Of a stretch of DNA of 64,000 nt, positions 5,519-64,000 are shown in pieces (position 1 is the stretch's first letter; each line of letters opens with the position of its first letter). The stretch comes from Ostreococcus lucimarinus (lineage: Eukaryota), in NCBI GenBank assembly GCA_000092065.1, contig CP000589.1; one strand, 5' to 3'. A model generated the notes under the pieces. It did no database searches. It saw nothing but the letters and a program-made list of their open reading frames with translations, and was not told where the DNA came from. The translations under genes were made by a program, and so were the position numbers.

Positions 5519-6472
5519 CTACGCGTTATCGGTGAGCGCTGAGAGTTGCGATTTGAGGTCGAGCAAGACTTTAACCGCGGCTTTGACGTCGTCGTCGGCG
5601 TTCGTGAGCCCCGCGTCTTTGAGCGCTCGCACCTCGGCCGCCTTCGCGTCCACCGCGGCGGATAATTCTTCGATTTTCGCCGCGTCAACCGCCGGAGCTT
5701 CGCCCGTGGGCTCGTCCACTCGCGTCACCCAATGGCCTTCGTCGTTCACGACGCGAACTTCGCCGTCCGAACCGTCCGGCTGAAGACGCACGACGCGATC
5801 GAAGCGCACCGCCTGCCCCGTCTTGTTCCCGTCGCCATCCTTCATCGTCCACACCGTGGCGTCTTCAATCCTAAATTTCGCCCCTCTCGAGCTCACGCGC
5901 ACGCCGCTATAGTTCATGATCACCCCATCGCTCGCCGCTCGATCCAAAAGCGCCCGTCTTTCCGCTTGCGTCGCCTCGTCCGCCTCGTCCGCCGACTTTT
6001 TACTCGACATCCCCACGAACGCGTCCCACTCCATCTCCCACAGCTCCAGCGCCGCTTGATTCCCATAATTGAACACATCGTTCCCATCGTGACTCGCGCA
6101 CGCGAACGGCGCTCGAAACAGCGCCCTCGCCGCGTCGTGCACCATCACGTTCCCCTCCACCAGCTTCGTCCCCGTCGCCTTTTTATACGACAGCCCGAGG
6201 TCCAGCGCGTGAAACACCATCTCCGCCGTCTCGTGTCGCGCCGCCGACGTCCCGCCCGACCCGATCGCCGCTTCGTCTTCGTCCTCGTCCCCTGCCGCGC
6301 CGTCGCGCGGCGTCGTCGTCGCCAGATCCCTCGCGAACTCGCGCTGTTTCGCCGCGCGCGCCGCCTTTCGTTTTTTATCCTTCGCCCGCGCGCGCACGTC
6401 CCGTCGCGCTTCGCGCGCGCGCGTCGTCGTCGCGCGCGTCGTCGTCGCGCGCGTCATCGCGCCCGCCGTCAT
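5519..6472 (-). CDS. MEKHLA-domain protein with a C-terminal WHEP-TRS-like helix-turn-helix domain. The N-terminus is basic and Thr/Arg-rich, organelle-presequence-like.
   Basis: MEKHLA-like: EMVFHALDLGL...ALFRAPFACASHDGNDVFNYGNQAALELWEMEWDAFVGMSSKKSAD...DGVIMNYSGVRVSSRGAKFRIEDATVW. WHEP-like: AAEVRALKDAGLTNADDDVKAAVKVLLDLKSQL. Confidence 0.65.
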   Translation of the reverse strand: MTAGAMTRATTTRATTTRAREARRDVRARAKDKKRKAARAAKQREFARDLATTTPRDGAAGDEDEDEAAIGSGGTSAARHETAEMVFHALDLGLSYKKATGTKLVEGNVMVHDAARALFRAPFACASHDGNDVFNYGNQAALELWEMEWDAFVGMSSKKSADEADEATQAERRALLDRAASDGVIMNYSGVRVSSRGAKFRIEDATVWTMKDGDGNKTGQAVRFDRVVRLQPDGSDGEVRVVNDEGHWVTRVDEPTGEAPAVDAAKIEELSAAVDAKAAEVRALKDAGLTNADDDVKAAVKVLLDLKSQLSALTDNA

Positions 6473-6831
6473 CGCCCGTCGTCGCCGTCGTCGTGTGCGG
6501 CGCGCGTCGCGTCGCTGGCGTGTCCATCGCCTCGTATATATAGTCTACGTGTCTACTTTTATATGGGATTAGACCACATACATTGACAGTTTCACACGCG
6601 ATGGACGCGACACCCCCGACCGACACTAAACCCTAAAGATTCGCGCATGTGCGGTGCAGACGATAAAGACGGACGCCCCGTAGTGCGCGCCGCAAAACGC
6701 CAATCAACGCGACACTCGGGTGTAAAAAGATGGTCGCGCGCCGCGCACCACAACACCCGCCATCGCGCGCCGCGCGCGCCGCGTCACCGACGCGCGCTTC
6801 GGTCGATCGCGCGCGCGAACGCACGATGGAC

Positions 6832-7344
6832 GATTTCGACGACTTCGTGTTCGGGTTCGAGATCGGGACGACGACGACAAACGGCGCGACGGCGACGACG
6901 ACGACGATTCGCGACGCGATTCGACATCCGTTCGACGTCGTCGCGTTCGCGACGCGGAGCAAATCGCCGACGCCGGCGCCGACGCGGGAGGAGGTCGAGC
7001 GCGAGGCGGCGGCGAAGGCCGCCCTGAAGGCGGCGGCGCGGCGGGAGCGGGAGCGACGGCGAAGCGCGAGGCGGCGGTTGGCGCAGACGGAGGCGCAGCG
7101 CGAGGCGGAGCGCCTGCGGAGTCGACGACGACGCGAGGCGACGACGAGCGCGCGGCGGGCGAGCGAAGCGCGAGGGAAGGCGCGAGGACGCGCGCGCGCG
7201 AGGGAGACGGTCGAGGCGGCGGCGACGCCGGCGTCAGCGAGCGGGGACGCGGCGGCGAGGAAGAGCGTCGGCGAGCGGCGAGCGGCGACGATTCGCCTCG
7301 GCGCGCGGCGGCGAGCGGCGGCGAGCGGCGTCGCCGTGAATTGA
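6832..7344 (+). CDS. Hypothetical small charged (Arg/Ala/Glu-rich, coiled-coil-like) protein starting MDDFDDFVFGFEIG.
   Basis: An ORF in a very GC-rich zone. It is supported only by two TGTAA motifs just downstream of its stop, at 7433 and 7457. Confidence 0.3.
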   Translation, partial: DFDDFVFGFEIGTTTTNGATATTTTIRDAIRHPFDVVAFATRSKSPTPAPTREEVEREAAAKAALKAAARRERERRRSARRRLAQTEAQREAERLRSRRRREATTSARRASEARGKARGRARARETVEAAATPASASGDAAARKSVGERRAATIRLGARRRAAASGVAVN

Positions 7345-12579: not shown

Positions 12580-15500
12580 CTAGATGCGATAACGGCCTTG
12601 TGGTTGACCTGCGGCGCCGGGAAGGGCTTGCTTAGCGATGGCGGTCTCGATGATGTTCTTGACGTAGTTCTTTCCTTCCTTGACCACGCGCTCGGTGGGG
12701 CCTTCGATGAGGAGGTAGAGCTTGCGATCGCCGGGGGCGAGCGGACGCCCGGGGGCGGCGTATTGCCCTTTTGCCGTGACTGCGGCGCCGGTATGCTCCA
12801 TGATTTGCACTAACGTGTCTTTGTGAGTGACCTTGTAGCGCGCGAATTGTGGGAAGTCGTTGATCTCGAGCTCAGTCTCGAAGTGCGAGCCTGACTGCGT
12901 CGGCCCTCTGGACGTTTTTGCGTGCTGCGCGTTGAGCGCTGCGGCGAGGGCGGCGGCTTTAGCGGCACCCGCCGATGCGCCGTGCGCAAGCGCGTAGCTC
13001 TGAGCCAATGCGATCGCTTTCGTATTTTGCGCGCCTGCAGCTTGTTTTTGCGGCTGCTTCATTTTTGCAAAAACGGATTGCGCCGCAGCTTGCGCGATCT
13101 GCGCGGGCGTCAAGCCACCCTTGGCGACGAGCGCTCCTGGCGTGTGCGCAGCCTCCGCCGCCGCCGCCGCCGCCGCCGCCGCTGCTGCGGCCGCTTGTGC
13201 TGGTGCTTGAGCAGCTGCAGCTGCTTGCGCCGCGGATGCTTGCGCTGCGGCTTGACCGGACGGACCCACAGAGGCGTAGATTGGTCCTTCGTCTTCCGCA
13301 TTGCCATCGCCGAAGACTGGCTCTTCGTCACTATCGCTCTCACCATCGTCTACATCCAGGCCAGCCGCTCGAGCGGCGTCACGCTTCTGTTTGCGCAAGA
13401 GGTCTTGCTCTTCTTGGTTGAATTTGAATCCAGAACCACCGAAGCCAGAACCAGCGGCACCGACGAGACCCTCCTTGCGCTTACGAGTAAACTCATCCGC
13501 CATTGCTTGCACATCCTGCGGGACGTTTTGCTTCGACTCTTTAAGCGCCTTGACTAAGTCGGGTGCGAACTTTTCTTCGTCTTCTGAAATAAACGTTACT
13601 GCGGTCCCTTTCTGGCCGGCGCGTCCAGTACGTCCAACTCTGTGCACGTAATCCTCCAAGTGGTTAGGCGTGTCGTAGTTGATGACGAGCCTCAAATCCT
13701 TGACATCCAACCCGCGAGCGGCGACGGAGGTGGCGACGAGGATGTTACAGACGTCTGATTTGAAGTCTGAAATCGTACTTTGTCGGTCGCTTTGTTCTTT
13801 ACCGCCATGTAAGCTCAAACACGGATAACCGCTCTTGAGCAATTCCTTAAACGTCGAGTCCGCCTTGTCCTGGCTCGCGACGAAGATTATAATCTTGCCG
13901 CGCTCGTACCATTCGCCGAGTAATTCTAAGACTCGTAAAAATCGATCTTCTTCGGGACGAAGTTCCACAAGCTGCTCTATATCGGAGTTCACCACGGACT
14001 TTCCACCGATTTGGATCTCGATCGGGTTGTCCAGCGCGGCACGCGCCAACGCCTCCATCGTGTGCGGAAACGTGGCGCTAAACATCACCGTCTGGCGATC
14101 CGGACGAAGATTGGCCAGGATGCGAGTAATTTGTGGTTCAAAGCCCATATCGAACATACGGTCTGCCTCATCGAGCACCATGTAAGTTACTCTACGCAAG
14201 TTTGTAATTTTTCCCGAACCTGTCGTCAGCAAGTCAATCATGCGACCGGGCGTGCACGCGACGATTTCCGCGCCGCGTTTCAAATCGCCAATCTGCGCCG
14301 CTATACCCGAGCCACCGTACACGGACACGGCCGAAAACCCCATGGCTTTTCCGTAACGCTTGCAATCTTTACCAATCTGCGTCACCAACTCTCTCGTAGG
14401 TCCCATGATCATACCAATAGGTCCGTCGCCGGAGGCGAGGGGCTCCTGCGCGTTGATGTGGCGCAACATCGGTAAAATGTACGCTAAAGTCTTCCCGCTA
14501 CCGGTTTTCGCGACCCCGATGCAATCGCGTCCGGACATGATCACGGGAAGCGCTTGTGCCTGAATAGGCATCGGCTTTTCGAATCCAGACCGGCGAATCA
14601 GCTCATGCACGCGATTGTTCAAGCCCGCCTGCGCCCACGTCTTGATGGGTTTCGGCACCTTTTTACCTCGACACTTGATTCCGTCCAACTCCACACGAAG
14701 CTGCTTCACCTCCGCCTTGGTCATCGACGCTATTTCCTTCGCTTCGATGTAAAAGTTTTTCTTCACCGGTTCGTAATCGATCTCGTCGTGATTCACCGTC
14801 CCGAGACGTTCAGTCTTGCTCAATTTCGCGGTTTGCTTCTTTGCCCACGCTTCGTCGTCGTCGTCGTCGTCATCTACCTCAGTTTTTGCTTCGACCGCGT
14901 CTTCCGACAGAACATCCGTAGTTTTAGCTTCATCTCTTTCGGCTTCGTCTTCGGACGACTCGCCTCCGCTTGAGTCGAAGACCTCGTTCATGACTTGCGC
15001 GCGTTTGGACGTTCTTCTATTCTTCTTCACCGGCACATAATTCACCGCCGCGGTCGGGATCACTGGACGCAAAACCTCGACGACAGACTTTTTCACCCCC
15101 AAAACCAACGGTTTCGACGTCGACGCGCCGTCCGCGGAGGTGCCTCGCGCGCCAATCTTCCCCGCCGCCGCCGCCTTTTTCGCCGCCGCCGCGAACACGC
15201 TCATCAACGCGTCTTCCTCCGAAACCTCCATCGGCGTCGCTTCAGCCTTCGCCTTTGCCTCTAACTTGGCCGCTTCCTTTTCCTCGGCCTCGCGCTTAGC
15301 GCGCTCTTTCGCCTTTTCTCGCTCCTGGTCCATCGCGTCGTCGTTCGCCGCCATGAAAGCGTCGAGCGGGTCGTCGTCTTCATCCGTCGTCTCCCCCTTA
15401 CTCCTGGACCCACTCCTCCCGCGTCGTTTCGCACCCCCCGCGACCGTCGTTTTCGCCTTTTTACCCCTCTTCCCATCGTCCTCGTCCGCGTCCGCGTCCG

Positions 15501-15807
15501 CGTCCGCATCACCGAGCGTCAATTCCGGCGGCGGCTTCGACTTCGCCGAATTCGACCCGTCGCCGTCCTCCTCCTCCTCCGCCTCGAACAATCCTCGCAC
15601 CGCGCTCGGCCTCGCGCTCGGTCTTCGCGCCGTCAGCGCGAACGACGCCGAGCGCTCCGACGCCTCTCGTCCGCCCCCCGCGCGCTCGTTCGCCCACGCG
15701 CGCGCTTTCGCGTGCCGCCGCGCCTTGACGTCCGCGTCGTCATCGTCCTCTCGCTCCCCGTTCTCCGCGCGTCGGCGCTTCGTCGCGCGCGGTGGCATCG
15801 AACGCAC
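12580..15807 (-). CDS. DDX46: DEAD-box ATP-dependent RNA helicase, DDX46/Prp5 orthologue (spliceosomal).
   Basis: All DEAD-box motifs are present (AKTGSGKT, PTRELV, DEADRM, SAT, HRVGRTGRAG). The family-specific C-terminus is also present (GSGFGGSGFKFNQEEQ ... ELEINDFPQFARYKVTHKDTL...LYLLIEGPTE...GRYRI). An acidic/Lys-rich N-terminal region has a poly-Ala/Gln tract. Confidence 0.9.
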   Translation of the reverse strand: MRSMPPRATKRRRAENGEREDDDDADVKARRHAKARAWANERAGGGREASERSASFALTARRPSARPSAVRGLFEAEEEEDGDGSNSAKSKPPPELTLGDADADADADEDDGKRGKKAKTTVAGGAKRRGRSGSRSKGETTDEDDDPLDAFMAANDDAMDQEREKAKERAKREAEEKEAAKLEAKAKAEATPMEVSEEDALMSVFAAAAKKAAAAGKIGARGTSADGASTSKPLVLGVKKSVVEVLRPVIPTAAVNYVPVKKNRRTSKRAQVMNEVFDSSGGESSEDEAERDEAKTTDVLSEDAVEAKTEVDDDDDDDEAWAKKQTAKLSKTERLGTVNHDEIDYEPVKKNFYIEAKEIASMTKAEVKQLRVELDGIKCRGKKVPKPIKTWAQAGLNNRVHELIRRSGFEKPMPIQAQALPVIMSGRDCIGVAKTGSGKTLAYILPMLRHINAQEPLASGDGPIGMIMGPTRELVTQIGKDCKRYGKAMGFSAVSVYGGSGIAAQIGDLKRGAEIVACTPGRMIDLLTTGSGKITNLRRVTYMVLDEADRMFDMGFEPQITRILANLRPDRQTVMFSATFPHTMEALARAALDNPIEIQIGGKSVVNSDIEQLVELRPEEDRFLRVLELLGEWYERGKIIIFVASQDKADSTFKELLKSGYPCLSLHGGKEQSDRQSTISDFKSDVCNILVATSVAARGLDVKDLRLVINYDTPNHLEDYVHRVGRTGRAGQKGTAVTFISEDEEKFAPDLVKALKESKQNVPQDVQAMADEFTRKRKEGLVGAAGSGFGGSGFKFNQEEQDLLRKQKRDAARAAGLDVDDGESDSDEEPVFGDGNAEDEGPIYASVGPSGQAAAQASAAQAAAAAQAPAQAAAAAAAAAAAAAEAAHTPGALVAKGGLTPAQIAQAAAQSVFAKMKQPQKQAAGAQNTKAIALAQSYALAHGASAGAAKAAALAAALNAQHAKTSRGPTQSGSHFETELEINDFPQFARYKVTHKDTLVQIMEHTGAAVTAKGQYAAPGRPLAPGDRKLYLLIEGPTERVVKEGKNYVKNIIETAIAKQALPGAAGQPQGRYRI

Positions 15808-26608: not shown

Positions 26609-27753
26609 CTACTTCTTAGTCGAAGGGAAAAGCGTCGTCAACGACGGTCGCGTCGGATTCACTTTGACGACTTGGTCGCCGACGACTTCGACGTTCTTGT
26701 ACGTGTAACCGACAAAGTTGGAATCTTTGCCCGCATCCGTTTCCCCAAGTTCACTCTTCTTTCGCATGCTCTCGTCCTCTTCGAAATCTTCAAAGTTACG
26801 AGTGTCCAATTGATGCGAAACGACGGGACTATGGGGTGGCTTCCTCGTGTAGAGAGTGTCCCAGTCGATGCCGCTAAAAAATTTGTGCGATTTGATCTCT
26901 TCCACGCCTCCGCTCGTTCCTAAACGCTGATCGACGTCGCATAACAGACGTTCGATCAAGTCGCGCGCTTCGGGAGAGATCGTCGCGTCGTCTGGAATTC
27001 TCAAGTGGTGTCTCCAGTGCACGATTTTACGGCACGTCGTCATCGGCTCGTCGCTGTAAAACGGCGCGTAACCCATGAGCATTTCAAACATGATAGCACC
27101 GACGCTCCACCAATCGCACTCCAAGCCGTATCCTTTCTTCAGGAGAACTTCTGGGGCGATGTAGTCCGGCGTACCAACTGTGCTGAACGCCAACCGACGT
27201 CGATTCTTCTGCCAGTTCGCGAGCTCTTCTGCGCGCTTTTGATCCGTCTCGATCGTGTTTGGCAAATTGCCCTCGCCGTCTCGACTCATCGCCGCTTCGT
27301 TCTCCAAGATTTCCGGGAGAACCGCCTGCTGATACGCCGGATCGATGGGTTTGCACAATCCGAAGTCGCTCAACTTCATGTGACCATCCTTGTCGAGCAA
27401 CAAGTTGTCCGGTTTGATGTCTCTGTGAATAAAGTTGTGTCGATGAATCGTCTCCAGCGCCGCCACCGTCTGCGCCAAGTAAAACCGCGTCTCTTCCTCC
27501 GTGAGCGTATCGCGTCGAATCAACAGAGTCATCACGTCTCCACCCGGTAAATATTCCATCACGAGGTACAAGAATTGATCGTCTTGAAACGAATAATACA
27601 GCGTCACCACCGCGCGCGAGTTCACCTCGGCGAGCAAGTTTCGCTCCGCCTTGACGTGATCGACTTGCCCGCGCCGAACCATTTCCGACTTTTTCAGCTT
27701 CTTCATCGCGAAAATCTCCCCCGTGCTCTTCTGTCGCACCAACCGCACCTCCC
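26609..27753 (-). CDS. NDR/LATS-family AGC protein kinase, exon 2 (kinase subdomains II-XI plus the hydrophobic-motif region).
   Basis: [24 protein letters not shown]...[25 protein letters not shown], then a long insert before [10 protein letters not shown], which is typical of NDR kinases. The frame continues upstream only through a splice. Confidence 0.85.
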
Positions 27754-27862
27754 CTGTTCGCGCGCGCGAAACGAATCCCACCCGTCGTCAGTCCCGCGTC
27801 CTCCCGGAATATTCCCGCGCGCGTCGTCGTCCGCGTCGCGTCGCGTCGCGTCGTTCACGCAC
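27754..27862 (-). other. 109-nt phase-1 intron of the NDR kinase gene (GTGCGTGA...CTGACGA...GCGAACAG).
   Basis: Splicing joins ...DFEPLKLIGRGAFG to EVRLVRQK, reconstituting an intact kinase subdomain I-II. A canonical CTGAC branch point lies about 34 nt before the AG. Confidence 0.8.
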
Positions 27863-27940
27863 CGAAAGCCCCTCGCCCGATCAACTTCAGCGGTTCAAAA
27901 TCCTCGACGCACATCCTTTTCCCCGTCCCCTGTTGCGCCT

Positions 27941-27984
<44 letters not shown>

Positions 27985-28133
27985 TCGCCCGCGCTCGCCT
28001 CGGTCCTCGCGCGCGCGTCCCCCGTCGTCATCCCTCCCTCTCGCTCGCTCGCCGCCCGCTGCGCCTTGCTCGCTCGCTGCGTCTTGCTCGACATCTTCGC
28101 CACCGCGCGCGAGAACCACGACTCCTTCCCCAT
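27863..28133 (-). CDS. NDR/LATS kinase exon 1. It carries the N-terminal regulatory region with a 14-residue poly-Thr tract and the glycine loop.
   Basis: MGKESWFSRAVAKMSSKTQRASKAQRAA...T14...CVEDFEPLKLIGRGAFG ends in a GT donor. Confidence 0.75.
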
Positions 28134-28522
28134 GTCGTCGCCGCGCCTCGTTCGTTCGTTCGTTCGTTCGAATCAAATCTCAAATCCGACCCCTCGTCGT
28201 CGCCGTCGTCGCGACGCGTTCGATCCCGATCGACGCGCGACGCCGCGCGTCGTCGTCCTTCGTCGCGCTCGCGCGGTCGCCGCGTCGCGATCGCCGTCGC
28301 TCGACGATCCGGGTCGCGTCGTCGCGCGCGCGCGAGTGCCGAGCTCGATCGATCGATCGAACGCGTCGCGTCGCGCGCGTCGACCGCGCGACCGCGGCGC
28401 CGGTCGACGACGCGCCGGCGCGCGGCGCGCGCGACGACGCCGACGCGCGCGCGCGACGTCGCGGCGCGCGACGGTCGGATTGGATGTCGTTTCGGACGCG
28501 CCGCGTCGGCACACGCGCGCGC

Positions 28523-28525
28523 ATG

Positions 28526-28561
<36 letters not shown>

Positions 28562-29170
28562 ACGCGACGCGTGCTGCGCGACGTCGTCCGCGCGCGACGC
28601 GCGCTTCGCGAGATCCGCGCGTCGCTCGACGCGAATCGCGCGCGGACGACGCGCGATTCGCGTCGAGCGTCGCGACGCGCGCGGTCGGACGCCGCGCGCG
28701 CGATCGCGCGCGACGCGAAGCGCGCGTCGAAGCGCGACGAAACGGACGCGCGAACGGCGACGGCGGCGACGCGCGCGCGGTTGGCGACGGCGGCGACGCG
28801 CGCGCGCGAGACGAGCGAGACGCTCGCGGCGGCGCTCGCGGCGGCGGCCGACGCGCGAGGCGGCGCGCGAGCGCTCGAGGACGCGCGAGGCGAGGTCGAG
28901 GACGCGAGGCGAGCGATTCGGGACGGCGCGCGCGCGATCGAGGCGCGCGCGAGGGCGATCGGGGCGACGATGGCGGCGACGGCGGCGGACGTCGAGGACG
29001 CGACGGAGGCGCGAGACGCGCGCGAGCGCGCGAGGCGGGCGACGGAGGCGGATTTCGAGCGCGCGCTCGCGCGCGAGCGGCGCGCGTGCGAGCGCGCGAT
29101 CGATGCGATGGACGCGCGCGCGCGCGATTGCGTCGTCGACGTCGCCGTCGCTCGACGCGGCGTCGCGTAA
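28523..29170 (+). CDS. Possible Ala/Arg/Asp-rich coiled-coil protein (MDDDDDDDDDDDATRRVLRDVV...). It lies inside an ~80 % GC zone where all six frames are open.
   Basis: The only support is the cluster of six TGTAA motifs immediately after its stop codon. The composition is repeat-driven. Confidence 0.25.
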
Positions 29171-29226
29171 CGTCACGTCAATGTAAAGTCAGTGTAATGT
29201 AATGTAACGTCAATGCAATGTAATGC
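29171..29226 (+). promoter_or_regulatory. Cluster of six (C/T)AATGTAA motifs (TGTAA-type putative polyadenylation signals) in an AT-rich island within very GC-rich DNA.
   Basis: cgtcaatgtaaagtcagtgtaatgtaatgtaacgtcaatgcaatgtaatg read directly. TGTAA is the green-algal poly(A) signal (established in Chlamydomonas). Confidence 0.5.
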
Positions 29227-29349
29227 GGCGCGTCGTAACGCGACGCGACGGACGCCGCGCCGACGGACGCCGCCTCGAATCGACGCCGCGTCGACGCGCG
29301 CGTCGGCGTCGCGTCGACGCGCGCGTCGACGTCGTCTCGCGTCGACGCG

Positions 29350-30441
29350 ATGACGATTTCATTCGCCGCGGCGGCGGCGGCGGCTTCGACGTCGACCGCG
29401 CGCGCGCGTCGACCGCGCGCGCGCGTCGACGCGGCGACGCGCGACGGCGACGGCGACCGCGCGCGTCGCCGCGTCGTCTGTCGCCTCGCGCGCGCGCCGC
29501 AGCGGCTGAGCGCCAACAAAAAGCGCGCGAAGCGCGAGCGCGAGGACGCGCGGCGAGAGGCGCGAAAAGTGTCGCGCGAGGACGGCGCGCTGCGCGGCCG
29601 GGTCGAGGACGCCGAGCACGAGGCGCGACGGTGGCTCGGACAACACTTTTTGGTGGACGCGAGCGTGGTGACGGACGCGGTGGAGGCGGCGAGGCTGGGA
29701 GCGGGGGAGCGAGTGCTGGAGATTGGACCGGGGACGGGAAACTTGACGAACGAGATGCTGAAGCGCGGGGCGCGCGTGTTGGCGGTGGAGAAGGATAGGA
29801 ATTTAGCGGAGAAATTACGGGAAGGGTTGTGCGTGGAGTATAAAGATGCGTTCGAGTTGGTGGAGGGGGATTTTTTGAAGTGGGACGGATTGGCGACGGC
29901 GTTTGAGCGCGCGACGCCGGAGACGCCGAGGGCGAAAGTGGTGGCGAATATTCCGTACAACATCACCACAGACGTGTTGAAGGTGTTGCTTCCGATGGGT
30001 GACACGTTTGAGGATATGATTTTTATGTTTCAAGAGGAAGTGGCGCAGCGTTTGGTGCGCGACGACGCCGGCGGCGGAGACTATCGGGCGATGAGCGTTC
30101 GCGTCCACTACTACTCCAAGCCGTATTACATCCGTCCAGTTTTGCGTGATTGCTTCATGCCGCCGCCGAACGTGGAATCGTGTTTAATCGGATTCAAGCC
30201 GAAAGAGCCGCACGAGCTCTTACCCTTGAACGGCACCGACAAGCAATTCTTCACCTTTGTCCAGGCGTGCTTCGCGCAAAAGCGTAAAATGTTACGCAAC
30301 AACCTCAAGGCGGTGTGCGACGAGGCGACGATGGACGGCGCGTTCGCGTTGCTCGACCGCGGACTTAAAGTTCGTCCGCAAGAGCTCACCATGGAGGAGT
30401 ACGTCAAACTATTCAATTTCGTACGCGATCGAGAGACGTGA
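29350..30441 (+). CDS. 16S/18S rRNA (adenine-N6,N6)-dimethyltransferase of the KsgA/Dim1 family, with an organellar presequence (PFC1/TFB1M-like).
   Basis: WLGQHFLVD...VLEIGPGTGNLT...ANIPYNITT and the C-terminal helical domain. An Ala/Arg-rich leader. Confidence 0.88.
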   Translation: MTISFAAAAAAASTSTARARRPRARVDAATRDGDGDRARRRVVCRLARAPQRLSANKKRAKREREDARREARKVSREDGALRGRVEDAEHEARRWLGQHFLVDASVVTDAVEAARLGAGERVLEIGPGTGNLTNEMLKRGARVLAVEKDRNLAEKLREGLCVEYKDAFELVEGDFLKWDGLATAFERATPETPRAKVVANIPYNITTDVLKVLLPMGDTFEDMIFMFQEEVAQRLVRDDAGGGDYRAMSVRVHYYSKPYYIRPVLRDCFMPPPNVESCLIGFKPKEPHELLPLNGTDKQFFTFVQACFAQKRKMLRNNLKAVCDEATMDGAFALLDRGLKVRPQELTMEEYVKLFNFVRDRET

Positions 30442-36641: not shown

Positions 36642-39143
36642 TTAATCTCCCTTCACCACGCGCGCGCCGCCGGATTCAACCTTGACTGAACGTAAAGGGC
36701 GGCGAACGAGCGATACGCACTGAATGACGTCCCCCATTCGGATGTCGACGACGTCTGCGAGAGCGATACCGCAGTCGCTACCTTTGCCGACGGCGTCGAC
36801 TTCGAGCCGGTGGCGGCGCATGGAAGAACAGTCGAGTAGCTCTTCGTGGATGCACACTCCGTCGCGAATCAACCTAAATTTCTCACCCGCTTTCATCGCT
36901 CCTTGGCCGACGACGCAGCCGGCGACGATGGTCGCGTTGTTGCCTTTCGCGCCGGACATGTCGAATATCTGCACGACGTTCGCCTCACCCTCGATTTGTT
37001 CGTGCTCCTCCATGGGCGCTAAGCCGGTGAGCATCTCTCCCACTTCGTCGAGTAAGTGGTAAATAACTCGGTGTCGAACGATGCGCACACCTTTCTGCTT
37101 GGCTAATTTCGCGAGCGAGTTGGGCGGCTCGCGCACGTTGAATCCCAGGACCGGAGCGCCGATGGCAGCGCTCAAGCTTATATCGCTTTCCGTGATGGCG
37201 CCAACGCCCATGAACACGACCTTCAATCCAACGGCTTCAGATGCGAGCCCTAAAAGAGCGTCGCGCACAGCTTCTGCCGTTCCTTGAACGTCAGCCTTGA
37301 TGATGACGTTTAAATGTCCTCGCTCTTCGGGATCAATTTCAGACTGATTCGCTGGCGCCGCCTCCTCGTCTTCACCTTTCATCCGCGCTTCGCGTTCTTC
37401 TCGTGCTTCGCTTATTCTCTTCGCTCTAGACTCGGATTCAACCATCGTGATGCTATCACCGGCCGAAGGAACCCCTTTCAAACCGACGAGCTCGAAAGGT
37501 TCAGCCGGACCAACGTGCGAGATTTGCTCGGCTTTGGCGTTGCGCAAGCTTCGAACTTTGCCATACTGATTACCCACGACCACATACGAACCGACTTTGA
37601 GCGTACCAGAGCGCAGTAATCCAGTAGCTGTCGGACCTTGCCCTTTATCTAACTTTGCCTCTAAAACAACACCATTAACTTTGCCCGAGAGAGACGCCTT
37701 TAACTCGAGCGCATCCGCCTCGAGGACGAGACACTCTTCCAATTCTGCCAATCCCTCACCTGTGATGGCTGAAATGGGAACACACTGCACTTTACCCCCG
37801 AATTCTTCTAATTCTATGCCCATGCTCCCGATCTCACTCTTCACTCGTCGTGGATCGGCATTTTCTCTATCAATCTTCGTAAGCGCGACGACCATCGGCA
37901 CCCCCGCCGCCTGTATGTGCGCCGCTGCCTCTCGCGTTTGTGGCATTACCCCATCATCCGCGGCGACAACAAGTACGGCAACATCCGTTGCCGTCGCTCC
38001 ACGCTGTCGCATCGCACTAAACGCGGCGTGACCGGGAGTATCGAGAAATGTCAGCGATCCGTGTCCGCCTGGAAGCTCGACGACGAAGGCGCCTATGTGT
38101 TGCGTGATTCCTCCCGCCTCGCCCGCGGCCACGGATGTCTTGCGCAACGAATCCAGCAGCGTCGTTTTCCCATGATCGACGTGTCCCATGACCGCCACTA
38201 CGCCTCGTCGCCGCACAACCTCTGTCGCGTCCGCGTTCGGATCCGGAGAGACGGAGATGTCCACGTTCAGTTCCAACCCGACCAACTCCATCACGTCCGT
38301 CGGCACCGCATCCTCGCTCGACGCCAAGGACTCACCCAAGTTCGCTAGCACAGTTTCTAAATCCCGAGTTTCCATCTCCAATACCCTCGCCAACTCTACC
38401 AAAGTCGTTCCCTCCGCGATCTCCGCGGCGCCGCCCGCGCGCGGACTCTCGAGCGACCGAGCCTCCCTCGCGTTCTCCCCGGCGGCGTCCTTCCTCTTCG
38501 CCCGCACCGTCCCTTTCCCAGCCACGCTAAATTTCCTATATTTAGAAATCTTTTCCTTCGTCTTCTTCGATCGCTTCCCGTCGCCGTCGTCCTCCTCCTC
38601 GTCAGCGGTGAGTTTCTTTCCCTTGTACCCGACGCGCGGCTTCTCTCTCGCCGTCGCGCTCGTCGCGCCCGTCCCGTCCCGACCCTTCGCCATCGTCATC
38701 ATCGACGACGTCCCGAACGATCTGCGCGCGCGCGACGACGGACGATCGCCGTCCGCGCGCGACGTCGTCGTCGTCCGCGCGCGAGCCGCCGCGAGCGCAC
38801 CAATCGCGCGCGCGTTCGCGGAATGCGGCGCGTCTCGCGCGTCCGAGCGCGCGCGCGCGCGATCGTCGACGCTCGGGGTCATCGTCGACAGCGCGCGCGT
38901 CGCGGCGCGGGCGCTCGTCGACGCGCGCGACGCCGCGCGACGAATCATCGTCGACGGCGCGCGCGACACACCGCGGCGATGACGGCGCGCGCGCTCGCGA
39001 CGACGTCGAGCGCGAGCGCGTCGACGAGCGCGCGCGCGCGTCGATGGAGCGCGCGCGCGACGCCGGACGCGAGGCGTCGACGAGTGTCGGCGGCGGCGAT
39101 GCGGCGCGGGCGTTCGGTGTCGACACCGCGCGAAGGCCGACAC
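36642..39143 (-). CDS. infB: Translation initiation factor IF-2 (bacterial/organellar type, presumably plastid). The real start may be an internal Met near ~38948.
   Basis: G domain GHVDHGKTTLLDSLR...DTPGHAAFSAMRQRG...ALTKID, plus the C-terminal IF-2 beta-barrel domains. A long Arg/Ala-rich leader. Confidence 0.93.
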   Translation of the reverse strand: MSAFARCRHRTPAPHRRRRHSSTPRVRRRARAPSTRARARRRARARRRRERARRHRRGVSRAPSTMIRRAASRASTSARAATRALSTMTPSVDDRARARSDARDAPHSANARAIGALAAARARTTTTSRADGDRPSSRARRSFGTSSMMTMAKGRDGTGATSATAREKPRVGYKGKKLTADEEEDDGDGKRSKKTKEKISKYRKFSVAGKGTVRAKRKDAAGENAREARSLESPRAGGAAEIAEGTTLVELARVLEMETRDLETVLANLGESLASSEDAVPTDVMELVGLELNVDISVSPDPNADATEVVRRRGVVAVMGHVDHGKTTLLDSLRKTSVAAGEAGGITQHIGAFVVELPGGHGSLTFLDTPGHAAFSAMRQRGATATDVAVLVVAADDGVMPQTREAAAHIQAAGVPMVVALTKIDRENADPRRVKSEIGSMGIELEEFGGKVQCVPISAITGEGLAELEECLVLEADALELKASLSGKVNGVVLEAKLDKGQGPTATGLLRSGTLKVGSYVVVGNQYGKVRSLRNAKAEQISHVGPAEPFELVGLKGVPSAGDSITMVESESRAKRISEAREEREARMKGEDEEAAPANQSEIDPEERGHLNVIIKADVQGTAEAVRDALLGLASEAVGLKVVFMGVGAITESDISLSAAIGAPVLGFNVREPPNSLAKLAKQKGVRIVRHRVIYHLLDEVGEMLTGLAPMEEHEQIEGEANVVQIFDMSGAKGNNATIVAGCVVGQGAMKAGEKFRLIRDGVCIHEELLDCSSMRRHRLEVDAVGKGSDCGIALADVVDIRMGDVIQCVSLVRRPLRSVKVESGGARVVKGD

Positions 39144-40925: not shown

Positions 40926-41172
40926 CGATCGAAGGGTCAGGACTCGTCGATCGCCGCCCCCGGACGAACGTAAAACCTAGCCCATCGCCGCGCGCGCGCG
41001 CTTCGATCGTCGTCCGCCGCGTCGCGTCGTTTTGTCGTTTTATCCAAAAGGGAGGCGCGCGCGCGTGTGCGTGCGCCGCGGCGACGCGCGCGGGATCGCC
41101 GCGCGGCACTCGCGGGCGGACGATCCGAGCCGTCGCGCGCGAAGGCGAAGCTCTCGCGCGCGTCGATCGACG

Positions 41173-43362
41173 ATGCGGGCGATGGACGCGTCGAGCGCGC
41201 TGGCGCCGCGGCGACGCGCGATCGGGACGCGCGGCGCCACGCGCGGGGCGAAGACCTCGAGGGCGATCGCGCGGGGGGCGGTGCGCGTCGCCGCGGGCGC
41301 GGTGTCGCAGGAGTACGCGATGGACGAACGAGGCGTGCTGATGCCGACGGGGAAGTACTGCGTGAATCACGCGGAGACGGTGCGAAGGAAGACGCGCACG
41401 GTGCACGTGGGCAACGTGAAGATTGGCTCGGAGCACCCAATCGTGAAGCAGACGATGACGACGAGCGACACGAGAGACGTCGAGAAGACGGTGGCGGAGG
41501 TGATTCGATGCGCCGATGCCGGTGCGGAGATGGTGCGGATCACGGTTCAGGGGATGCAAGAGGCGAAGGCGTGCAAGATCATCAAGGAGACGCTCGTGGC
41601 GAAGGGATACGATACGCCGCTCATCGCGGATATCCACTTCGCGCCGAAGGTGGCGATGATGGTGGCTGAATGCTTCGATAAGATTCGCGTGAACCCCGGT
41701 AACTTTGCGGATGGTCGTAAGACGTTTGAAAACATCCTGTACGAAACGGATGAAGAGTACAACGCCGAACTCGCGGAGATTGAAGAAATCTTCACGCCGC
41801 TCGTGTTGAAGTGCAAGGAGCGAGGCGTGGCGATGCGCATCGGTACGAACCACGGTTCTTTGTCCGCGCGCACGTTGTCGCGCTTTGGTGACACGCCGAT
41901 GGGGATGGTGGAATCTGCGTTCGAATTCGCGCGCATTTGCCGCAAGCACGATTACCACAACTTTGTCTTCTCCATGAAGGCGTCTAACCCTCTCGTCATG
42001 GTGCAAGCGTATCGCCTGTTGTCCCACGAGATGTACAAGCTCGGCTGGGACTACCCGCTTCACCTCGGCGTCACCGAAGCCGGCGAAGGCGAAGACGGTC
42101 GCATGAAGTCTTCCATCGGTATCGGTGCTCTCTTACTTGACGGTCTCGGAGACACCATTCGCGTGTCTCTCACCGAAGCATCCGAGCTCGAAATCGAGCC
42201 GTGCACGCGCTTGGCCAACCTCGGTATGAAGGCGTGCGCCGAAAACATCGGTGTCGAGCAATTCGAGGACTCTGTCCGTGACTTCAAGACCTTCACGCGC
42301 AGAACTGGTGATTTGCCCGAACAAAAGGACTCTGATGCGATTGATTTCCGGAACATTCTCCACCGCGACGGCTCTGTGCTCGCCGCCGTCACCACGGCGC
42401 AACTCGCGTCGGAAGATGGCTTCTACCGCGAATTGGGCGCCAAGCTTGCGGTCGGTATGCCGCTTCGTGATATCGCCACCTGTGATTCCATCTTGCTCAG
42501 CGAAGTTCCCGCCGCGTCCGAAGAGAAGGCGCTCCGATCTATCCGTCGCCTCCAAGAAATCGGCTGCGGCGTTGTCGTGCCGGCTGACCTTCTCCGAGCG
42601 ACGCCGTTGGAGAACGCCATCGCCCTCGTCAGCGCCGACGAAGTCGGTGCTCCGTTGCCGGCCGGTGCCGCGCGAAAGGCTGTCACGTTGAACGGCTTCG
42701 AGACCGTCGAACAACTCAAGGCTGTCGCAGCGTCTGACGCCGTCATGGTGCTCATCAAGACGAAGGATGGCGAGTCTCGTCTCCACTCTTCTCGCCGCAT
42801 CGCCGAAGTGATGGCGCAAGTCGGTGCGAAGATGCCGGTCATTCATCACATGTACATGCCGACCGGCGACAAGTCGGACATCGTCATTCAATCCGGCTCC
42901 CAAGTCGGTGGTTTGCTCGTCGACGGCTTTGGCGACGGCGTGTTGATCCAATACGCCGGCTCCGACAAGGATGTCTCATTGGACTTCCTTCGTACGACCT
43001 CGTTCGGTTTGCTCCAAGGCTCTCGTATGCGTAACACGAAGACGGAGTACGTCTCTTGCCCGTCGTGCGGACGCACCCTCTTCGACTTGCAAGAAGTCAC
43101 GGCGCAAATCCAAGAGAAGACTGGACACTTGCCTGGCGTCGCCATCGCCGTTATGGGTTGCATCGTCAACGGTCCGGGTGAGATGGCGGATGCGGATTTC
43201 GGTTATGTTGGTGGTGCTCCGGGTAAGATTGACTTGTACGTCGGTAAGGAAGTCGTCAAGCGAGGTATCGCGATGGAAACTGCGTGTGATGAACTCATTC
43301 AACTCATCAAGGACAACGACCGCTGGATCGAAAAAGAAGTCGAGGAAGCCGTCGCCGCGTGA
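41173..43362 (+). CDS. ispG: 4-hydroxy-3-methylbut-2-enyl diphosphate synthase (IspG/GcpE/HDS, MEP pathway). It is the plant/cyanobacterial type with the central insertion domain, and it has a plastid-type presequence.
   Basis: KYCVNHAETVRRKTRTVHVGNVKIGSEHPIVKQTMTT...RITVQG...IADIHF..., a large insert, then C-terminal ...YVSCPSCGRT...MGCIVNGPGEMADADFGYVGG. Confidence 0.93.
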   Translation: MRAMDASSALAPRRRAIGTRGATRGAKTSRAIARGAVRVAAGAVSQEYAMDERGVLMPTGKYCVNHAETVRRKTRTVHVGNVKIGSEHPIVKQTMTTSDTRDVEKTVAEVIRCADAGAEMVRITVQGMQEAKACKIIKETLVAKGYDTPLIADIHFAPKVAMMVAECFDKIRVNPGNFADGRKTFENILYETDEEYNAELAEIEEIFTPLVLKCKERGVAMRIGTNHGSLSARTLSRFGDTPMGMVESAFEFARICRKHDYHNFVFSMKASNPLVMVQAYRLLSHEMYKLGWDYPLHLGVTEAGEGEDGRMKSSIGIGALLLDGLGDTIRVSLTEASELEIEPCTRLANLGMKACAENIGVEQFEDSVRDFKTFTRRTGDLPEQKDSDAIDFRNILHRDGSVLAAVTTAQLASEDGFYRELGAKLAVGMPLRDIATCDSILLSEVPAASEEKALRSIRRLQEIGCGVVVPADLLRATPLENAIALVSADEVGAPLPAGAARKAVTLNGFETVEQLKAVAASDAVMVLIKTKDGESRLHSSRRIAEVMAQVGAKMPVIHHMYMPTGDKSDIVIQSGSQVGGLLVDGFGDGVLIQYAGSDKDVSLDFLRTTSFGLLQGSRMRNTKTEYVSCPSCGRTLFDLQEVTAQIQEKTGHLPGVAIAVMGCIVNGPGEMADADFGYVGGAPGKIDLYVGKEVVKRGIAMETACDELIQLIKDNDRWIEKEVEEAVAA

Positions 43363-51892: not shown

Positions 51893-52113
51893 CGCGTCGC
51901 GCGGTGCCGACCGGCCGGGACGCCCGACGGGGAGTCAAAACACCCGGTCGCGCGGTCGCGCCGAAACACGAACGCGAAAACGGTCGCGACGCGGCGGGAA
52001 ACGCACGCGACCGACGCGTTCGAACGAGCGAGCGAACGCGCGCACACGCGAGCGCGCGAGCGACCGCGCTCGCGAACGAAAGGCGTCGACGGCGTCGGGT
52101 CGGGTCGCGCCGA

Positions 52114-52177
52114 CGGCGAACGGCGAACGGCGAACGGCGAACGGCGAACGGCGAACGGCGAACGGCGAACGGCGAAC
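52114..52177. repeat. (CGGCGAA)9 heptanucleotide microsatellite in the 336-bp divergent WW / TPR promoter region.
   Basis: Read directly. Confidence 0.9.
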
Positions 52178-52228
52178 GACGGTTCGAGCGGGCGCGCGCG
52201 CGCGGAATCGAGTCGACCCGCGCGAGCG

Positions 52229-53518: not shown

Positions 53519-53571
53519 GTACGTGTTTGATATCCGTCGTTCGGCGGCTGGTATTCACGATGTTAGCGCAG

Positions 53572-54828: not shown

Positions 54829-54983
54829 TTCCAGTATGTTTTCCACGATTTTGCCTCAAAATGACCATAACCAGCGCTTGTCGTGAAAGTTACTAATTTG
54901 TGCTTGAATTCTCGCCCGGTTGAACGAGCCGTCTAGACGTCCACGCGTTTGTCCCGTCGACACACGTCGAACTGTGCGCGAAC

Positions 54984-56128: not shown

Positions 56129-56241
56129 TTTCGCGCGTGCATCGATTTATCGATTTGTGAGTGAAGTAAATTATTACGGTGTAAGGAGTTGCGATGAAAG
56201 TTCGGGATGATTCTCATCTCACATTCAAACGATCTAAAGTT

Positions 56242-63983: not shown

Positions 63984-64000
63984 CTCCTTCGCCTCGGGCG

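What the first reader, a model, noticed from the sequence alone, without database searches (positions are those of the whole stretch)
5519..6472. Unusual domain fusion: MEKHLA domain joined to a WHEP-TRS domain
MEKHLA (PAS-like) is known from the C-terminus of plant HD-ZIP III factors and from stand-alone cyanobacterial and plastid proteins. WHEP-TRS is a helix-turn-helix normally appended to aminoacyl-tRNA synthetases. I am not aware of the two in one polypeptide. It could be a plastid-targeted sensor, given the Thr/Arg-rich leader, with an RNA- or protein-interaction module.
Basis: partly seen in the sequence, partly recalled or inferred. Interest (0 to 1): 0.6.

Follow-up and report, generated by a model that had tools for sequence, protein, structure and literature searches.

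The report
Green-algal MEKHLA sensor fused to WHEP
This Ostreococcus gene really does encode a PAS-like MEKHLA sensor domain joined to a WHEP helix-turn-helix otherwise known from tRNA synthetases, and the combination defines a conserved, unstudied protein family found across green algae, so it is real and moderately interesting but not unique to this genome.

Summary
ORF 5519-6472 (-) encodes 317 aa. It hits MEKHLA strongly (143 bits; cut-off 23.7). It hits WHEP-TRS only marginally (32.6 bits; cut-off 32.5).

Independent evidence supports the WHEP call:
- 31 of 38 family members hit WHEP-TRS.
- A family profile of the C-terminal module finds only solved aaRS WHEP domains at the top (MetRS 2DJV, E=1.4e-7).
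- The module folds as a confident two-helix hairpin.
- dN/dS is about 0.10.

The window is Ostreococcus lucimarinus CCE9901. Its reference annotation holds only a 140-aa partial model (XP_001419706.1, residues 85-224), which hides the fusion.

The architecture is not unique. It recurs in every chlorophyte class sampled, including Micromonas, Chloropicon, Cymbomonas, Chlamydomonas, Volvox, Monoraphidium, Myrmecia and Ostreobium. UniProt already auto-names some members "WHEP-TRS domain-containing protein". I found no paper describing it.

All members share one layout: a variable, acid-poor leader ending V-x-A|A-K-K, a Lys-rich tract, MEKHLA, a linker, then WHEP.

The best reading is a probably plastid-targeted, one-component-style sensor whose output is RNA or protein binding. 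Targeting, ligand and partner are inferred, not shown.

The parts
5519..6472 (-). Complete intron-less CDS, 317 aa plus stop, of the MEKHLA-WHEP protein
   Evidence: ORF listing. Identical 317-aa gene calls on 17 marine metagenome contigs. Aligns end to end with MMETSP transcript-derived homologues marked 'type:complete'. Residues 85-224 equal XP_001419706.1 of O. lucimarinus CCE9901.
6389..6472 (-). Thr/Arg/Ala-rich leader, residues 1-28, a putative organelle (plastid) transit peptide ending V26-R27-A28
   Evidence: Across the family, leaders are 20-50 aa, carry 0-2 acidic residues, vary in sequence and end V-x-A just before a conserved A-K-K. IspG, a plastid enzyme of the same window, has a leader of the same style. 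dN/dS is 0.5 to above 1. Function is inferred.
6405..6494 (.). (ACG/GCG)n low-complexity tract that encodes most of the leader and differs by indels between strains
   Evidence: Tandem Repeats Finder periods 3, 12 and 15. Alignment with two related loci shows indels here and conservation resuming at the RRDVRARAKDKKRK codons.
6332..6388 (-). Lys/Arg-rich basic tract, residues 29-47 (RAKDKKRKAARAAKQREFA)
   Evidence: Family members carry 8-14 K+R in the 40 residues after the junction. The tract is K/R-rich in Mamiellophyceae and K/G-rich in other classes. Modelled as a low-confidence helix. Its role, RNA binding or NLS, is inferred.
6221..6331 (-). Acidic, low-complexity disordered linker, residues 48-84
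   Evidence: pLDDT 29-36. The Asp/Glu-rich patch is conserved in character, not in sequence.
5777..6220 (-). MEKHLA (PAS-like) sensor domain with its N-terminal cap helices, residues 85-232
   Evidence: Pfam PF08670, 143.2 bits. pLDDT 80-94 with a five-stranded sheet plus helices. Foldseek hits PAS/LOV domains, e.g. NifL 2GJ3 with target-normalised TM 0.82, rmsd 2.7 A. dN/dS 0.15.
5684..5776 (-). Beta-hairpin extension (residues 233-250) and flexible linker (251-263)
   Evidence: Strands 236-242 and 248-250 in the model, and pLDDT about 52 for the linker. 'LxxDGSDG..VV...G.W' is conserved in Mamiellophyceae and replaced by 'W.YEDG' in other classes.
5522..5683 (-). WHEP-TRS helix-turn-helix module, residues 264-317
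   Evidence: Pfam PF00458, 32.6 bits against cut-off 32.5. Family profile hits MetRS WHEP 2DJV at E=1.4e-7, then EPRS, HisRS, TrpRS and GlyRS. Isolated model pLDDT 94.7 with helices 3-25 and 33-55. dN/dS 0.10.
6557..6563 (-). TATAAAA element about 90 nt upstream of the ATG, in a 257-bp divergent intergenic region
   Evidence: Read directly from the sequence. Conserved in the locus of the 97% relative. Promoter function is inferred.

Best explanation
This is a complete nuclear gene of Ostreococcus lucimarinus. It encodes a member of a conserved chlorophyte protein family with five parts: an N-terminal organelle-targeting leader (most likely a plastid transit peptide cleaved near V-R-A28), a Lys/Arg-rich tract, an acidic linker, a MEKHLA/PAS-like sensor domain, and a C-terminal WHEP helix-turn-helix.

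The most likely mechanism is that of a one-component sensor. The MEKHLA pocket binds an as yet unknown small molecule or senses a redox cue. That state controls how the flanking basic tract and the WHEP hairpin engage a partner. By analogy with WHEP domains of synthetases, the partner would be an RNA (tRNA, rRNA or mRNA) or a protein of the translation machinery.

Shown here: the ORF, both domains, the fold, family-wide conservation and purifying selection on every module.

Inferred: the location, the existence of a ligand, and the nature of the partner.
For: - Architecture.
- Conservation of the full layout in Mamiellophyceae, Chloropicophyceae, Pyramimonadophyceae, Chlorophyceae, Trebouxiophyceae and Ulvophyceae.
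- Purifying selection: WHEP dN/dS 0.10 and MEKHLA 0.15, against a fast-evolving leader.
- Leader: 20-50 acid-poor residues ending V-x-A|A-K-K in nearly all full-length members, the same style as plastid IspG encoded in this window. V-x-A is the stromal processing consensus reported for Chlamydomonas transit peptides (my own knowledge, Franzen et al. 1990).
- Sensor: invariant polar residues H128, Y136, N138, S157, S160, Q169, R172 and R192 lie on the A/B strands, the E/F helices and the G strand, the elements that form the cofactor pocket in PAS domains.
- Precedent: in REVOLUTA, MEKHLA acts as a regulatory sensor that blocks dimerisation until a stimulus arrives (PMC4496561).
- Output: WHEP domains are used for RNA or protein interaction (PMC7564348).
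- Expression: MMETSP transcripts exist for homologues.
Against: - No targeting predictor or localisation data were available.
- WHEP has been reported only on cytosolic synthetase isoforms in plants (PMC7564348), which fits a cytosolic protein better.
- 'KKRK' in the basic tract matches a classical nuclear localisation signal.
- No ligand is known for any MEKHLA domain.
- The flavin-adduct Cys of LOV and the F-helix His of FixL are absent.
- The linker between MEKHLA and WHEP has low confidence, so there is no evidence of docking.
- The WHEP Pfam score decays to E=0.03 in C. reinhardtii and to nothing in Chlamydomonas sp. UWO241.
- Some relatives (P0126, P0021) lack WHEP.
- Prokaryotic gene contexts gave no functional lead.
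Confidence: 0.5

Rival explanations
1. It is a nucleo-cytosolic, or dual plastid/nucleus, protein. The basic tract is a nuclear localisation signal, and the WHEP hairpin ties the MEKHLA sensor to cytosolic aminoacyl-tRNA synthetases or cytosolic/nuclear RNAs. This would be a free-standing counterpart of the nuclear MEKHLA of HD-ZIP III factors.
For: - 'KDKKRKAARAAKQR' contains a K-K/R-x-K/R motif.
- In plants WHEP is reported only on cytosolic aaRS isoforms (PMC7564348).
- Lys-rich appendages plus WHEP are typical of eukaryotic cytosolic synthetases (my own knowledge).
- The only characterised MEKHLA domains act in the nucleus (PMC4496561).
Against: - A variable, acid-poor leader of 20-50 residues precedes the basic tract in nearly all members and ends in a shared V-x-A junction. 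That would be unnecessary for a purely nucleo-cytosolic protein.
- The leader resembles that of plastid IspG in the same genome.
- In Chlorophyceae the basic tract is K/G-rich ('KKGDKGGKGGKG') and less like an NLS.
Confidence: 0.25
2. The C-terminal hairpin descends from a WHEP domain but now serves only as a structural or regulatory helical element. It could be a dimerisation coiled coil, or a J-alpha-like lid on the PAS sheet. It would bind no RNA and have no link to translation.
For: - PAS domains commonly signal through flanking helices. The top Foldseek hits of the full model are LOV2 constructs aligned over about 215 columns, including their C-terminal helices.
- The isolated hairpin matches many generic helical hairpins as well as it matches WHEP.
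- The Pfam WHEP signal erodes in Chlorophyceae while the helices persist.
Against: - The WHEP signature is retained over the depth of Chlorophyta ('QA..VR.LK' in helix 1, 'V..AV..LL..K' in helix 2, with R282, K285 and K307 nearly invariant).
- dN/dS is 0.10.
- A flexible linker of about 13 residues separates it from the PAS core.
Confidence: 0.2
3. The WHEP call is a chance match of an Ala/Lys/Glu-rich helical segment, or an artefact of the gene model, and the protein is simply a stand-alone MEKHLA protein.
For: - The single-sequence Pfam score exceeds the cut-off by only 0.1 bit.
- phmmer of the single segment against the PDB finds no WHEP.
- The fold search is not significant.
- The reference annotation stops before this region.
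Against: - The family profile hits WHEP domains of five different synthetases first (E=1.4e-7).
- 31 of 38 members hit PF00458 (best E=1.3e-10), with scores of 40.6, 34.8 and 33.5 bits in Chloropicon, Cymbomonas and Myrmecia.
- The reading frame is continuous to the stop codon and under purifying selection.
- Transcript-derived homologues include the segment.
Confidence: 0.03

Closest known systems
MEKHLA domain of class III HD-ZIP transcription factors (e.g. REVOLUTA)
   Same: The same Pfam family (PF08670) and a PAS-like fold. It is presumed to be a sensor that regulates an attached effector. In REV it inhibits dimerisation until a stimulus arrives (PMC4496561).
   Different: There is no homeodomain, leucine zipper or START domain. 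The MEKHLA sits in the middle of a small 317-aa protein rather than at the C-terminus of an approximately 840-aa factor. The effector is a WHEP hairpin. The lineage is chlorophyte, not streptophyte. No HD-ZIP III-length protein appears among the 150 best profile hits, whereas prokaryotic-size proteins of about 160 aa do.
Stand-alone MEKHLA proteins of bacteria and cyanobacteria (about 150-165 aa), and the Chlamydomonas MEKHLA protein noted by Mukherjee and Burglin (PMC2775110)
   Same: They share the MEKHLA core at 35-43% identity. The Chlamydomonas protein XP_001691837.1 shares the window protein's layout and is its probable orthologue, by strong sequence similarity and positional alignment (no phylogeny was made).
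   Different: The prokaryotic proteins lack the leader, the basic tract and WHEP. The accessible literature records only that a MEKHLA domain exists in Chlamydomonas and does not mention the WHEP partner. In C. reinhardtii WHEP scores only E=0.03 in Pfam.
WHEP-TRS domains of eukaryotic aminoacyl-tRNA synthetases (MetRS, GluProRS, HisRS, TrpRS, GlyRS; plant cytosolic AsnRS)
   Same: A helix-turn-helix of about 50 residues with the conserved 'VR.LK' and 'V..LL.LK' signature. The best solved match is human MetRS WHEP 2DJV (E=1.4e-7, 33% identity, rmsd 2.0 A).
   Different: It is not attached to any synthetase core. The turn is two residues longer and carries a family-specific 'G-x-T-N-x-D' motif. 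It sits on a protein with an organelle-type leader, whereas plant WHEPs are reported on cytosolic isoforms only (PMC7564348).
One-component PAS/LOV sensors with helical effectors (LOV2 with its J-alpha helix; the LOV-HTH protein EL222)
   Same: A PAS core followed by a short linker and a small helical output module. The full model's best structural matches are LOV2 constructs. This is a resemblance in logic only.
   Different: There is no flavin-binding Cys or LOV motif. The output is a WHEP hairpin, not a DNA-binding LuxR-type HTH. Docking of the hairpin on the sheet was not tested. The comparison with EL222 rests on my own knowledge.

Membership tests
MEKHLA domain (Pfam PF08670) | Sequence match to the family profile above the curated cut-off | tested here: met
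   143.2 bits against cut-off 23.7, E=6.6e-42, profile positions 7-140 of 143. 38 of 38 family members match.
MEKHLA domain (Pfam PF08670) | PAS-like alpha/beta fold | tested here: met
   The AF2 core has pLDDT 80-94 with five main strands and flanking helices. Foldseek matches PAS/LOV domains, e.g. NifL 2GJ3 with TM 0.82 on the target and rmsd 2.7 A.
Class III HD-ZIP transcription factors | Homeodomain, leucine zipper and START domains N-terminal to MEKHLA | tested here: not met
   Pfam finds only MEKHLA and WHEP-TRS in the 317-aa protein. It is not a member of this family.
WHEP-TRS domain (Pfam PF00458) | Sequence match to the family profile above the curated cut-off | tested here: met
   Marginal for the window protein (32.6 against 32.5 bits, E=8e-8). 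Clearer in relatives: Chloropicon 40.6, Cymbomonas 34.8, Myrmecia 33.5. 31 of 38 members match at E<=0.01.
WHEP-TRS domain (Pfam PF00458) | Specific similarity to experimentally solved WHEP domains | tested here: met
   The family profile of the C-terminal module hits MetRS 2DJV (E=1.4e-7), EPRS 1FYJ and 1D2D, HisRS 1X59, TrpRS and GlyRS before any other protein.
WHEP-TRS domain (Pfam PF00458) | Helix-turn-helix of about 50 residues, as judged by 3D comparison | tested here: inconclusive
   Two helices are predicted with pLDDT 94.7. Foldseek gives no hit at E<=0.001. WHEP of HisRS and MetRS rank 3rd and 4th among many generic hairpins.
WHEP-TRS domain (Pfam PF00458) | Appended to or inserted in an aminoacyl-tRNA synthetase | tested here: not met
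   There is no aaRS domain in the protein or in adjacent genes. This reflects the usual context of the domain rather than its fold, and it is the unusual point of the finding.
WHEP-TRS domain (Pfam PF00458) | Binds RNA or partner proteins | not testable with these tools
   Needs EMSA, CLIP or pull-down experiments.
Nuclear-encoded plastid proteins with a cleavable transit peptide | Acid-poor N-terminal leader rich in Arg, Ala and hydroxylated residues, variable between species | tested here: met
   The window leader has 28-29 residues, 2 acidic and 8 basic, and is 52% Ser+Thr+Ala. Family leaders carry 0-2 acidic residues. It is similar to IspG of the same window and evolves fast.
Nuclear-encoded plastid proteins with a cleavable transit peptide | V-x-A type processing site (consensus recalled from Chlamydomonas work) | tested here: met
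   The junction reads 'VRA|RAK' here and 'VVA|AKK', 'VLA|AKK', 'VCA|AKK' or 'VRA|AKK' in other members, and conservation starts exactly there. This is a motif match only.
Nuclear-encoded plastid proteins with a cleavable transit peptide | Demonstrated import or localisation, or a calibrated predictor score | not testable with these tools
   No TargetP or PredAlgo was available. No paper cites the C. reinhardtii accession.
LOV (flavin) photosensory PAS domains | Conserved adduct-forming Cys in the E-alpha helix motif | tested here: not met
   The E-alpha region reads S157-K-K-S160 and there is no conserved Cys in the family alignment.
FixL-type haem PAS domains | Proximal His on the F-alpha helix | tested here: not met
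   The F-alpha helix (residues 166-182, ATQAERRALLDRAASDG) contains no His. The conserved residues there are Q169 and R172.

The most novel reading that the evidence does not exclude
The protein is a dual-located plastid and nucleus/cytosol signal carrier. It would be imported through its leader and would sense a plastid metabolite or redox state through MEKHLA. It would then act on translation or gene expression through its WHEP and basic modules. It would also represent the free-standing nuclear-encoded MEKHLA lineage from which streptophytes built the sensor end of HD-ZIP III factors. On that reading, the unknown MEKHLA ligand could be identified in a small soluble algal protein.
Probability: 0.1. 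Interest if true: 0.8.

Novelty: new variant of a known kind. Interest (0 to 1): 0.45.

Why it matters
What the MEKHLA domain senses is still unknown almost twenty years after it was described in HD-ZIP III developmental regulators. A small, soluble, single-copy algal protein with the same domain is a simpler system for finding the ligand. Such proteins exist in tractable species (Chlamydomonas, Ostreococcus).

The family would also be a rare case of a WHEP domain working outside an aminoacyl-tRNA synthetase. If the leader is a transit peptide, it would be a WHEP domain working inside an organelle. That would point to a sensor-controlled link to plastid RNA or translation.

At a practical level, the reference annotations of O. 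lucimarinus (140-aa partial) and M. pusilla CCMP1545 (no leader) are truncated and should be corrected.

Tried and rejected
- Single-sequence phmmer of the C-terminal 63 residues against the PDB found only a weak DnaK match. I replaced it with a family profile, which worked.
- Foldseek of the isolated hairpin was not discriminating.
- The afdb50 fold library was unavailable.
- NCBIfam gave nothing.
- The sub-threshold Pfam hits (Phage_gene29, 23 bits against cut-off 29, and others) overlap the linker and helix 1. I dismissed them as compositional.
- Gene neighbourhoods of prokaryotic stand-alone MEKHLA proteins differ from each other (P450/DJ-1/aldehyde dehydrogenase in one; MiaB-like/TsaB/RimI/Nfu in the other) and gave no functional lead.
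With one bacterial query it returned only a Rhodocyclaceae MAG and a Cyanothece MAG, so a cyanobacterial origin was neither supported nor refuted.
- The 2006 MEKHLA paper is not held.
- Searches for MEKHLA with WHEP, for the C. reinhardtii accession, and for the two database names found no paper.
- Three algal papers that appeared to mention MEKHLA actually cite an author named Al-Mekhlafi.
- I considered and rejected LOV-type and FixL-type cofactor binding, because the key Cys and His are absent.
- I considered and rejected read-through into a neighbouring synthetase gene. The neighbours are Vps54/syndetin, an unknown ORF and a cyclophilin.
Full report
**What is there**

The window has an uninterrupted ORF at exactly 5519-6472 on the minus strand (ATG to TAG, 317 aa). 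Pfam finds MEKHLA (PF08670) at residues 92-226, with 143.2 bits against a cut-off of 23.7 (E=6.6e-42). It finds WHEP-TRS (PF00458) at residues 270-315, with 32.6 bits against a cut-off of 32.5 (E=8e-8). NCBIfam finds nothing. So the MEKHLA call is beyond doubt. The WHEP call was borderline and needed independent support.

**Testing the WHEP call**

Several lines of evidence agree.
- 16 of 18 close homologues and 31 of 38 homologues from across the family hit PF00458 on their own (best E=1.3e-10). Chloropicon, Cymbomonas and Myrmecia score 40.6, 34.8 and 33.5 bits.
- A profile built only from the C-terminal 56-63 residues of 12 members was searched against all PDB sequences. It returns the WHEP domain of human MetRS first (2DJV, E=1.4e-7). 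WHEP domains of GluProRS (1FYJ, 1D2D), HisRS (1X59), TrpRS and GlyRS follow, and unrelated coiled coils appear only at E>0.07.
- AlphaFold2 models residues 264-286 and 294-316 as two helices joined by a turn. pLDDT is about 90 in the full-length model and 94.7 for the module alone.
- Against a 65%-identical relative, dN/dS of the WHEP codons is 0.10. MEKHLA gives 0.15 and the N-terminal 84 residues give 0.50.

Two tests did not help.
- phmmer with the single sequence found no WHEP.
- Foldseek with the isolated hairpin gave no significant hit. The HisRS and MetRS WHEP domains were ranks 3 and 4 and had the highest identities (33-35%).

A two-helix hairpin is simply too generic for structure alone to decide, so the sequence-profile evidence carries the call. 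Compared with synthetase WHEPs, the turn is two residues longer and carries a family-specific G-x-T-N-x-D motif.

**The MEKHLA part**

The model of residues 83-250 is confident (pLDDT 80-94). It shows two N-terminal cap helices, a five-stranded sheet with the usual PAS helices, and an extra beta-hairpin at 236-250. Foldseek against the PDB gives PAS/LOV domains only, for example NifL PAS 2GJ3 (target-normalised TM 0.82, rmsd 2.7 A).

In the alignment of 38 sequences, Y136, S157, R172, R192 and G197 are invariant. H128, N138, S160, Q169, F200 and G219-Q220-A221 are nearly so. These residues lie on the strands and on the E/F helices that line the cofactor pocket in PAS domains, which suggests a bound ligand, possibly anionic. 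That is inference.

The adduct-forming Cys of LOV domains and the F-helix His of FixL are absent. Neither of those known sensing chemistries applies.

**Organism and gene model**

Residues 85-224 are 100% identical to XP_001419706.1 / ABO97999.1, [quoted passage not shown], a 140-aa model on a 670,853-bp record. The window is therefore O. lucimarinus CCE9901 or a near-identical strain. The reference annotation keeps only the MEKHLA core and hides both the leader and the WHEP.

Several observations support the full ORF.
- Identical 317-aa gene calls occur on 17 marine metagenome contigs, including a TARA scaffold.
- Transcript-derived homologues from MMETSP marked "complete" align end to end.
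- The selection analysis covers the whole ORF.

The neighbours are ordinary nuclear genes. A Vps54/syndetin gene converges on the 3' end. An unknown Arg/Ala-rich ORF and a cyclophilin lie upstream. This microsynteny is kept in the 65% relative. No synthetase gene is nearby, so the WHEP is not read-through from a neighbour.

**How widespread it is**

An exhaustive profile search of 1.84 billion cluster representatives gave 1631 hits at E<=0.001. About 36 of the best 150 match through both MEKHLA and WHEP. The rest are mostly stand-alone MEKHLA proteins of 150-170 aa.

Named members with the full layout come from these classes.
- Mamiellophyceae: Ostreococcus mediterraneus (UniRef A0A7S0T7N4) and Micromonas pusilla CCMP1545.
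- Chloropicophyceae: Chloropicon primus.
- Pyramimonadophyceae: Cymbomonas tetramitiformis.
- Chlorophyceae: Chlamydomonas reinhardtii XP_001691837.1, C. incerta, C. schloesseri, Volvox, Gonium, Astrephomene, Pleodorina, Edaphochlamys and Monoraphidium.
- Trebouxiophyceae: [Myrmecia] bisecta.
- Ulvophyceae: Ostreobium quekettii.

The fusion therefore probably dates to the base of Chlorophyta. I saw no streptophyte member, but I did not test for absence.

UniProt already titles several members "WHEP-TRS domain-containing protein" or "MEKHLA domain-containing protein". The architecture is thus visible to automatic annotation.

The Pfam WHEP score fades in Chlorophyceae, to E=0.03 in C. reinhardtii and nothing in Chlamydomonas sp. 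UWO241. Several reference models are also truncated. This may explain why the Chlamydomonas MEKHLA protein was noted without a partner domain (PMC2775110).

I found no paper that mentions MEKHLA with WHEP, the C. reinhardtii accession, or either database name. A survey of plant synthetases states that WHEP had only been found in aaRSs, and in plants only in GlyRS and cytosolic AsnRS (PMC7564348).

**The N-terminal region**

Nearly all full-length members begin with a leader that has these features.
- It is 20-50 residues long.
- It is variable in sequence.
- It carries 0-2 acidic residues and several Arg.
- It ends in V-x-A just before a conserved A-K-K. The junction reads "VRA|RAK" here and "VVA|AKK", "VLA|AKK", "VCA|AKK" or "VRA|AKK" elsewhere.

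After the junction comes a Lys/Arg- or Lys/Gly-rich tract with 8-14 basic residues in 40, and then an acidic patch.

In this window the leader is encoded by an (ACG/GCG)n tract at 6405-6494 that differs by indels between strains. Nucleotide conservation resumes exactly at the codons for RRDVRARAKDKKRK. The leader's dN/dS is 0.5 to above 1.

IspG, a plastid enzyme encoded at 41032-43362, has a leader of the same style, ending "VRVAA|G".

All of this is what a green-algal transit peptide and its processing site look like. The V-x-A consensus is recalled from Chlamydomonas work and was not tested here. Even so, this is not a localisation result. A mitochondrial presequence is not excluded, and the "KKRK" motif immediately after the junction also fits a nuclear localisation signal.

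**Most likely mechanism**

I read the protein as an organelle-targeted, most likely plastid, one-component-style sensor. A PAS-like MEKHLA domain perceives a small molecule or a redox change. That state modulates how two flanking nucleic-acid- or protein-binding elements engage a partner. The two elements are the basic tract and the WHEP hairpin.

The logic rests on three precedents.
- MEKHLA in REVOLUTA gates dimerisation (PMC4496561).
- WHEP domains generally mediate RNA or protein contacts (PMC7564348).
- PAS sensors commonly signal through flanking helices, and the structural matches to LOV2 constructs fit this.

My rough estimates are as follows.
- That the architecture and its conservation are real: above 0.95.
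- Organelle targeting: about 0.7, of which plastid about 0.55.
- RNA or translation-linked output: about 0.35.

The rivals are these.
- A nucleo-cytosolic or dual-located protein, with the basic tract acting as an NLS and WHEP linking to cytosolic synthetases.
- A hairpin that has become a purely structural or regulatory helix pair.
- A spurious WHEP call, which the evidence above largely excludes.

**Comparison with known families**

The protein is a member of the MEKHLA and WHEP-TRS domain families by their profile definitions. It is not an HD-ZIP III factor, since it has no homeodomain, zipper or START domain. It is not a synthetase. It lacks the defining residues of LOV and FixL sensors.

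It works like a PAS sensor with a small helical output module. Whether the hairpin docks on the sheet, as J-alpha does in LOV2, could not be tested, because the linker has low confidence and no error matrix was available.

Prokaryotic stand-alone MEKHLA proteins are closer to it in sequence than HD-ZIP III-length proteins, none of which appear among the 150 best hits. Their gene contexts vary and tell us nothing. The one genome scan I could run returned a Rhodocyclaceae and a Cyanothece relative. The proposed cyanobacterial origin of MEKHLA remains untested here.

**Verdict**

The fusion is not peculiar to this genome. It defines an ancient, uncharacterised chlorophyte family that databases already tag automatically, while the accessible literature is silent on it.

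I rate it a new variant of a known kind: a PAS-type sensor with an unusual, synthetase-derived output module. Interest is moderate (0.45). Its main value is as a simple system for finding what MEKHLA senses, and as a rare WHEP domain outside a synthetase.

Noticed in passing
window 5519-6472 (-), compared with XP_001419706.1: The O. lucimarinus CCE9901 reference annotation holds only a 140-aa 'partial' model, equal to residues 85-224 of the 317-aa ORF. The M. pusilla CCMP1545 model XP_003056792.1 (269 aa) likewise starts at an internal Met and lacks the leader. Both look like gene-model truncations.
   Followed up: yes
window 6405-6494: The Thr/Arg-rich leader is encoded by an (ACG/GCG)n microsatellite-like tract that varies by indels between closely related strains. 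One relative (P0003) has a much longer Thr-rich leader.
   Followed up: yes
window 6473-6729 and 6730-7344 (+): A 257-bp divergent intergenic region carries a conserved TATAAAA at 6557-6563 (-). It is shared with an Arg/Ala-rich ORF of 204 aa that has no Pfam match but is also called as a gene on metagenome contigs.
   Followed up: partly
P0126 and P0021 (relatives from metagenomes): P0126 is a low-GC relative, possibly Bathycoccus-like. It has the leader, basic tract, MEKHLA and hairpin but no WHEP, and ends in an acidic tail. P0021 has a divergent C-terminus without WHEP. These could be WHEP loss or assembly artefacts on short contigs.
   Followed up: no
P0301, P0308, P0245 (Chlorophyceae orthologues): The Pfam WHEP score decays from 40.6 bits in Chloropicon to 14.8 in C. 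reinhardtii and to none in Chlamydomonas sp. UWO241, although the segment stays alignable. Chlorophycean members also gain an acidic C-terminal tail ('AAFDDDDE').
   Followed up: partly
window 36642-39143 (-), 41032-43362 (+), 62334-63983 (-): These are genes for proteins that are organellar in the green lineage: a bacterial-type IF-2, GcpE/IspG of the MEP pathway, and an SppA-type S49 peptidase. The IspG and IF-2 leaders resemble the leader of the MEKHLA-WHEP protein.
   Followed up: partly
window 52000-64000: GC content falls from about 0.60-0.68 to 0.49-0.58 over the last 12 kb of the window. This may be a compositional boundary of the kind known for outlier regions of Mamiellales chromosomes.
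   Followed up: no
window 27575-30005: This is the most GC-rich stretch of the window (0.725), with long overlapping ORFs in several frames on both strands. It is probably a low-complexity, GC-rich coding region or a repeat.
   Followed up: no
window 12580-15807 (-): A large DEAD-box helicase of 1075 aa carries a C-terminal KH domain (Pfam KH_12).
   Followed up: no
P0022 cluster (245 aa, 67 members, metagenomes): This is a separate MEKHLA-only eukaryote-like family at 41% identity over the core. It has a hydrophobic, signal-peptide-like N-terminus and no WHEP. Its source organism is unknown.
   Followed up: no
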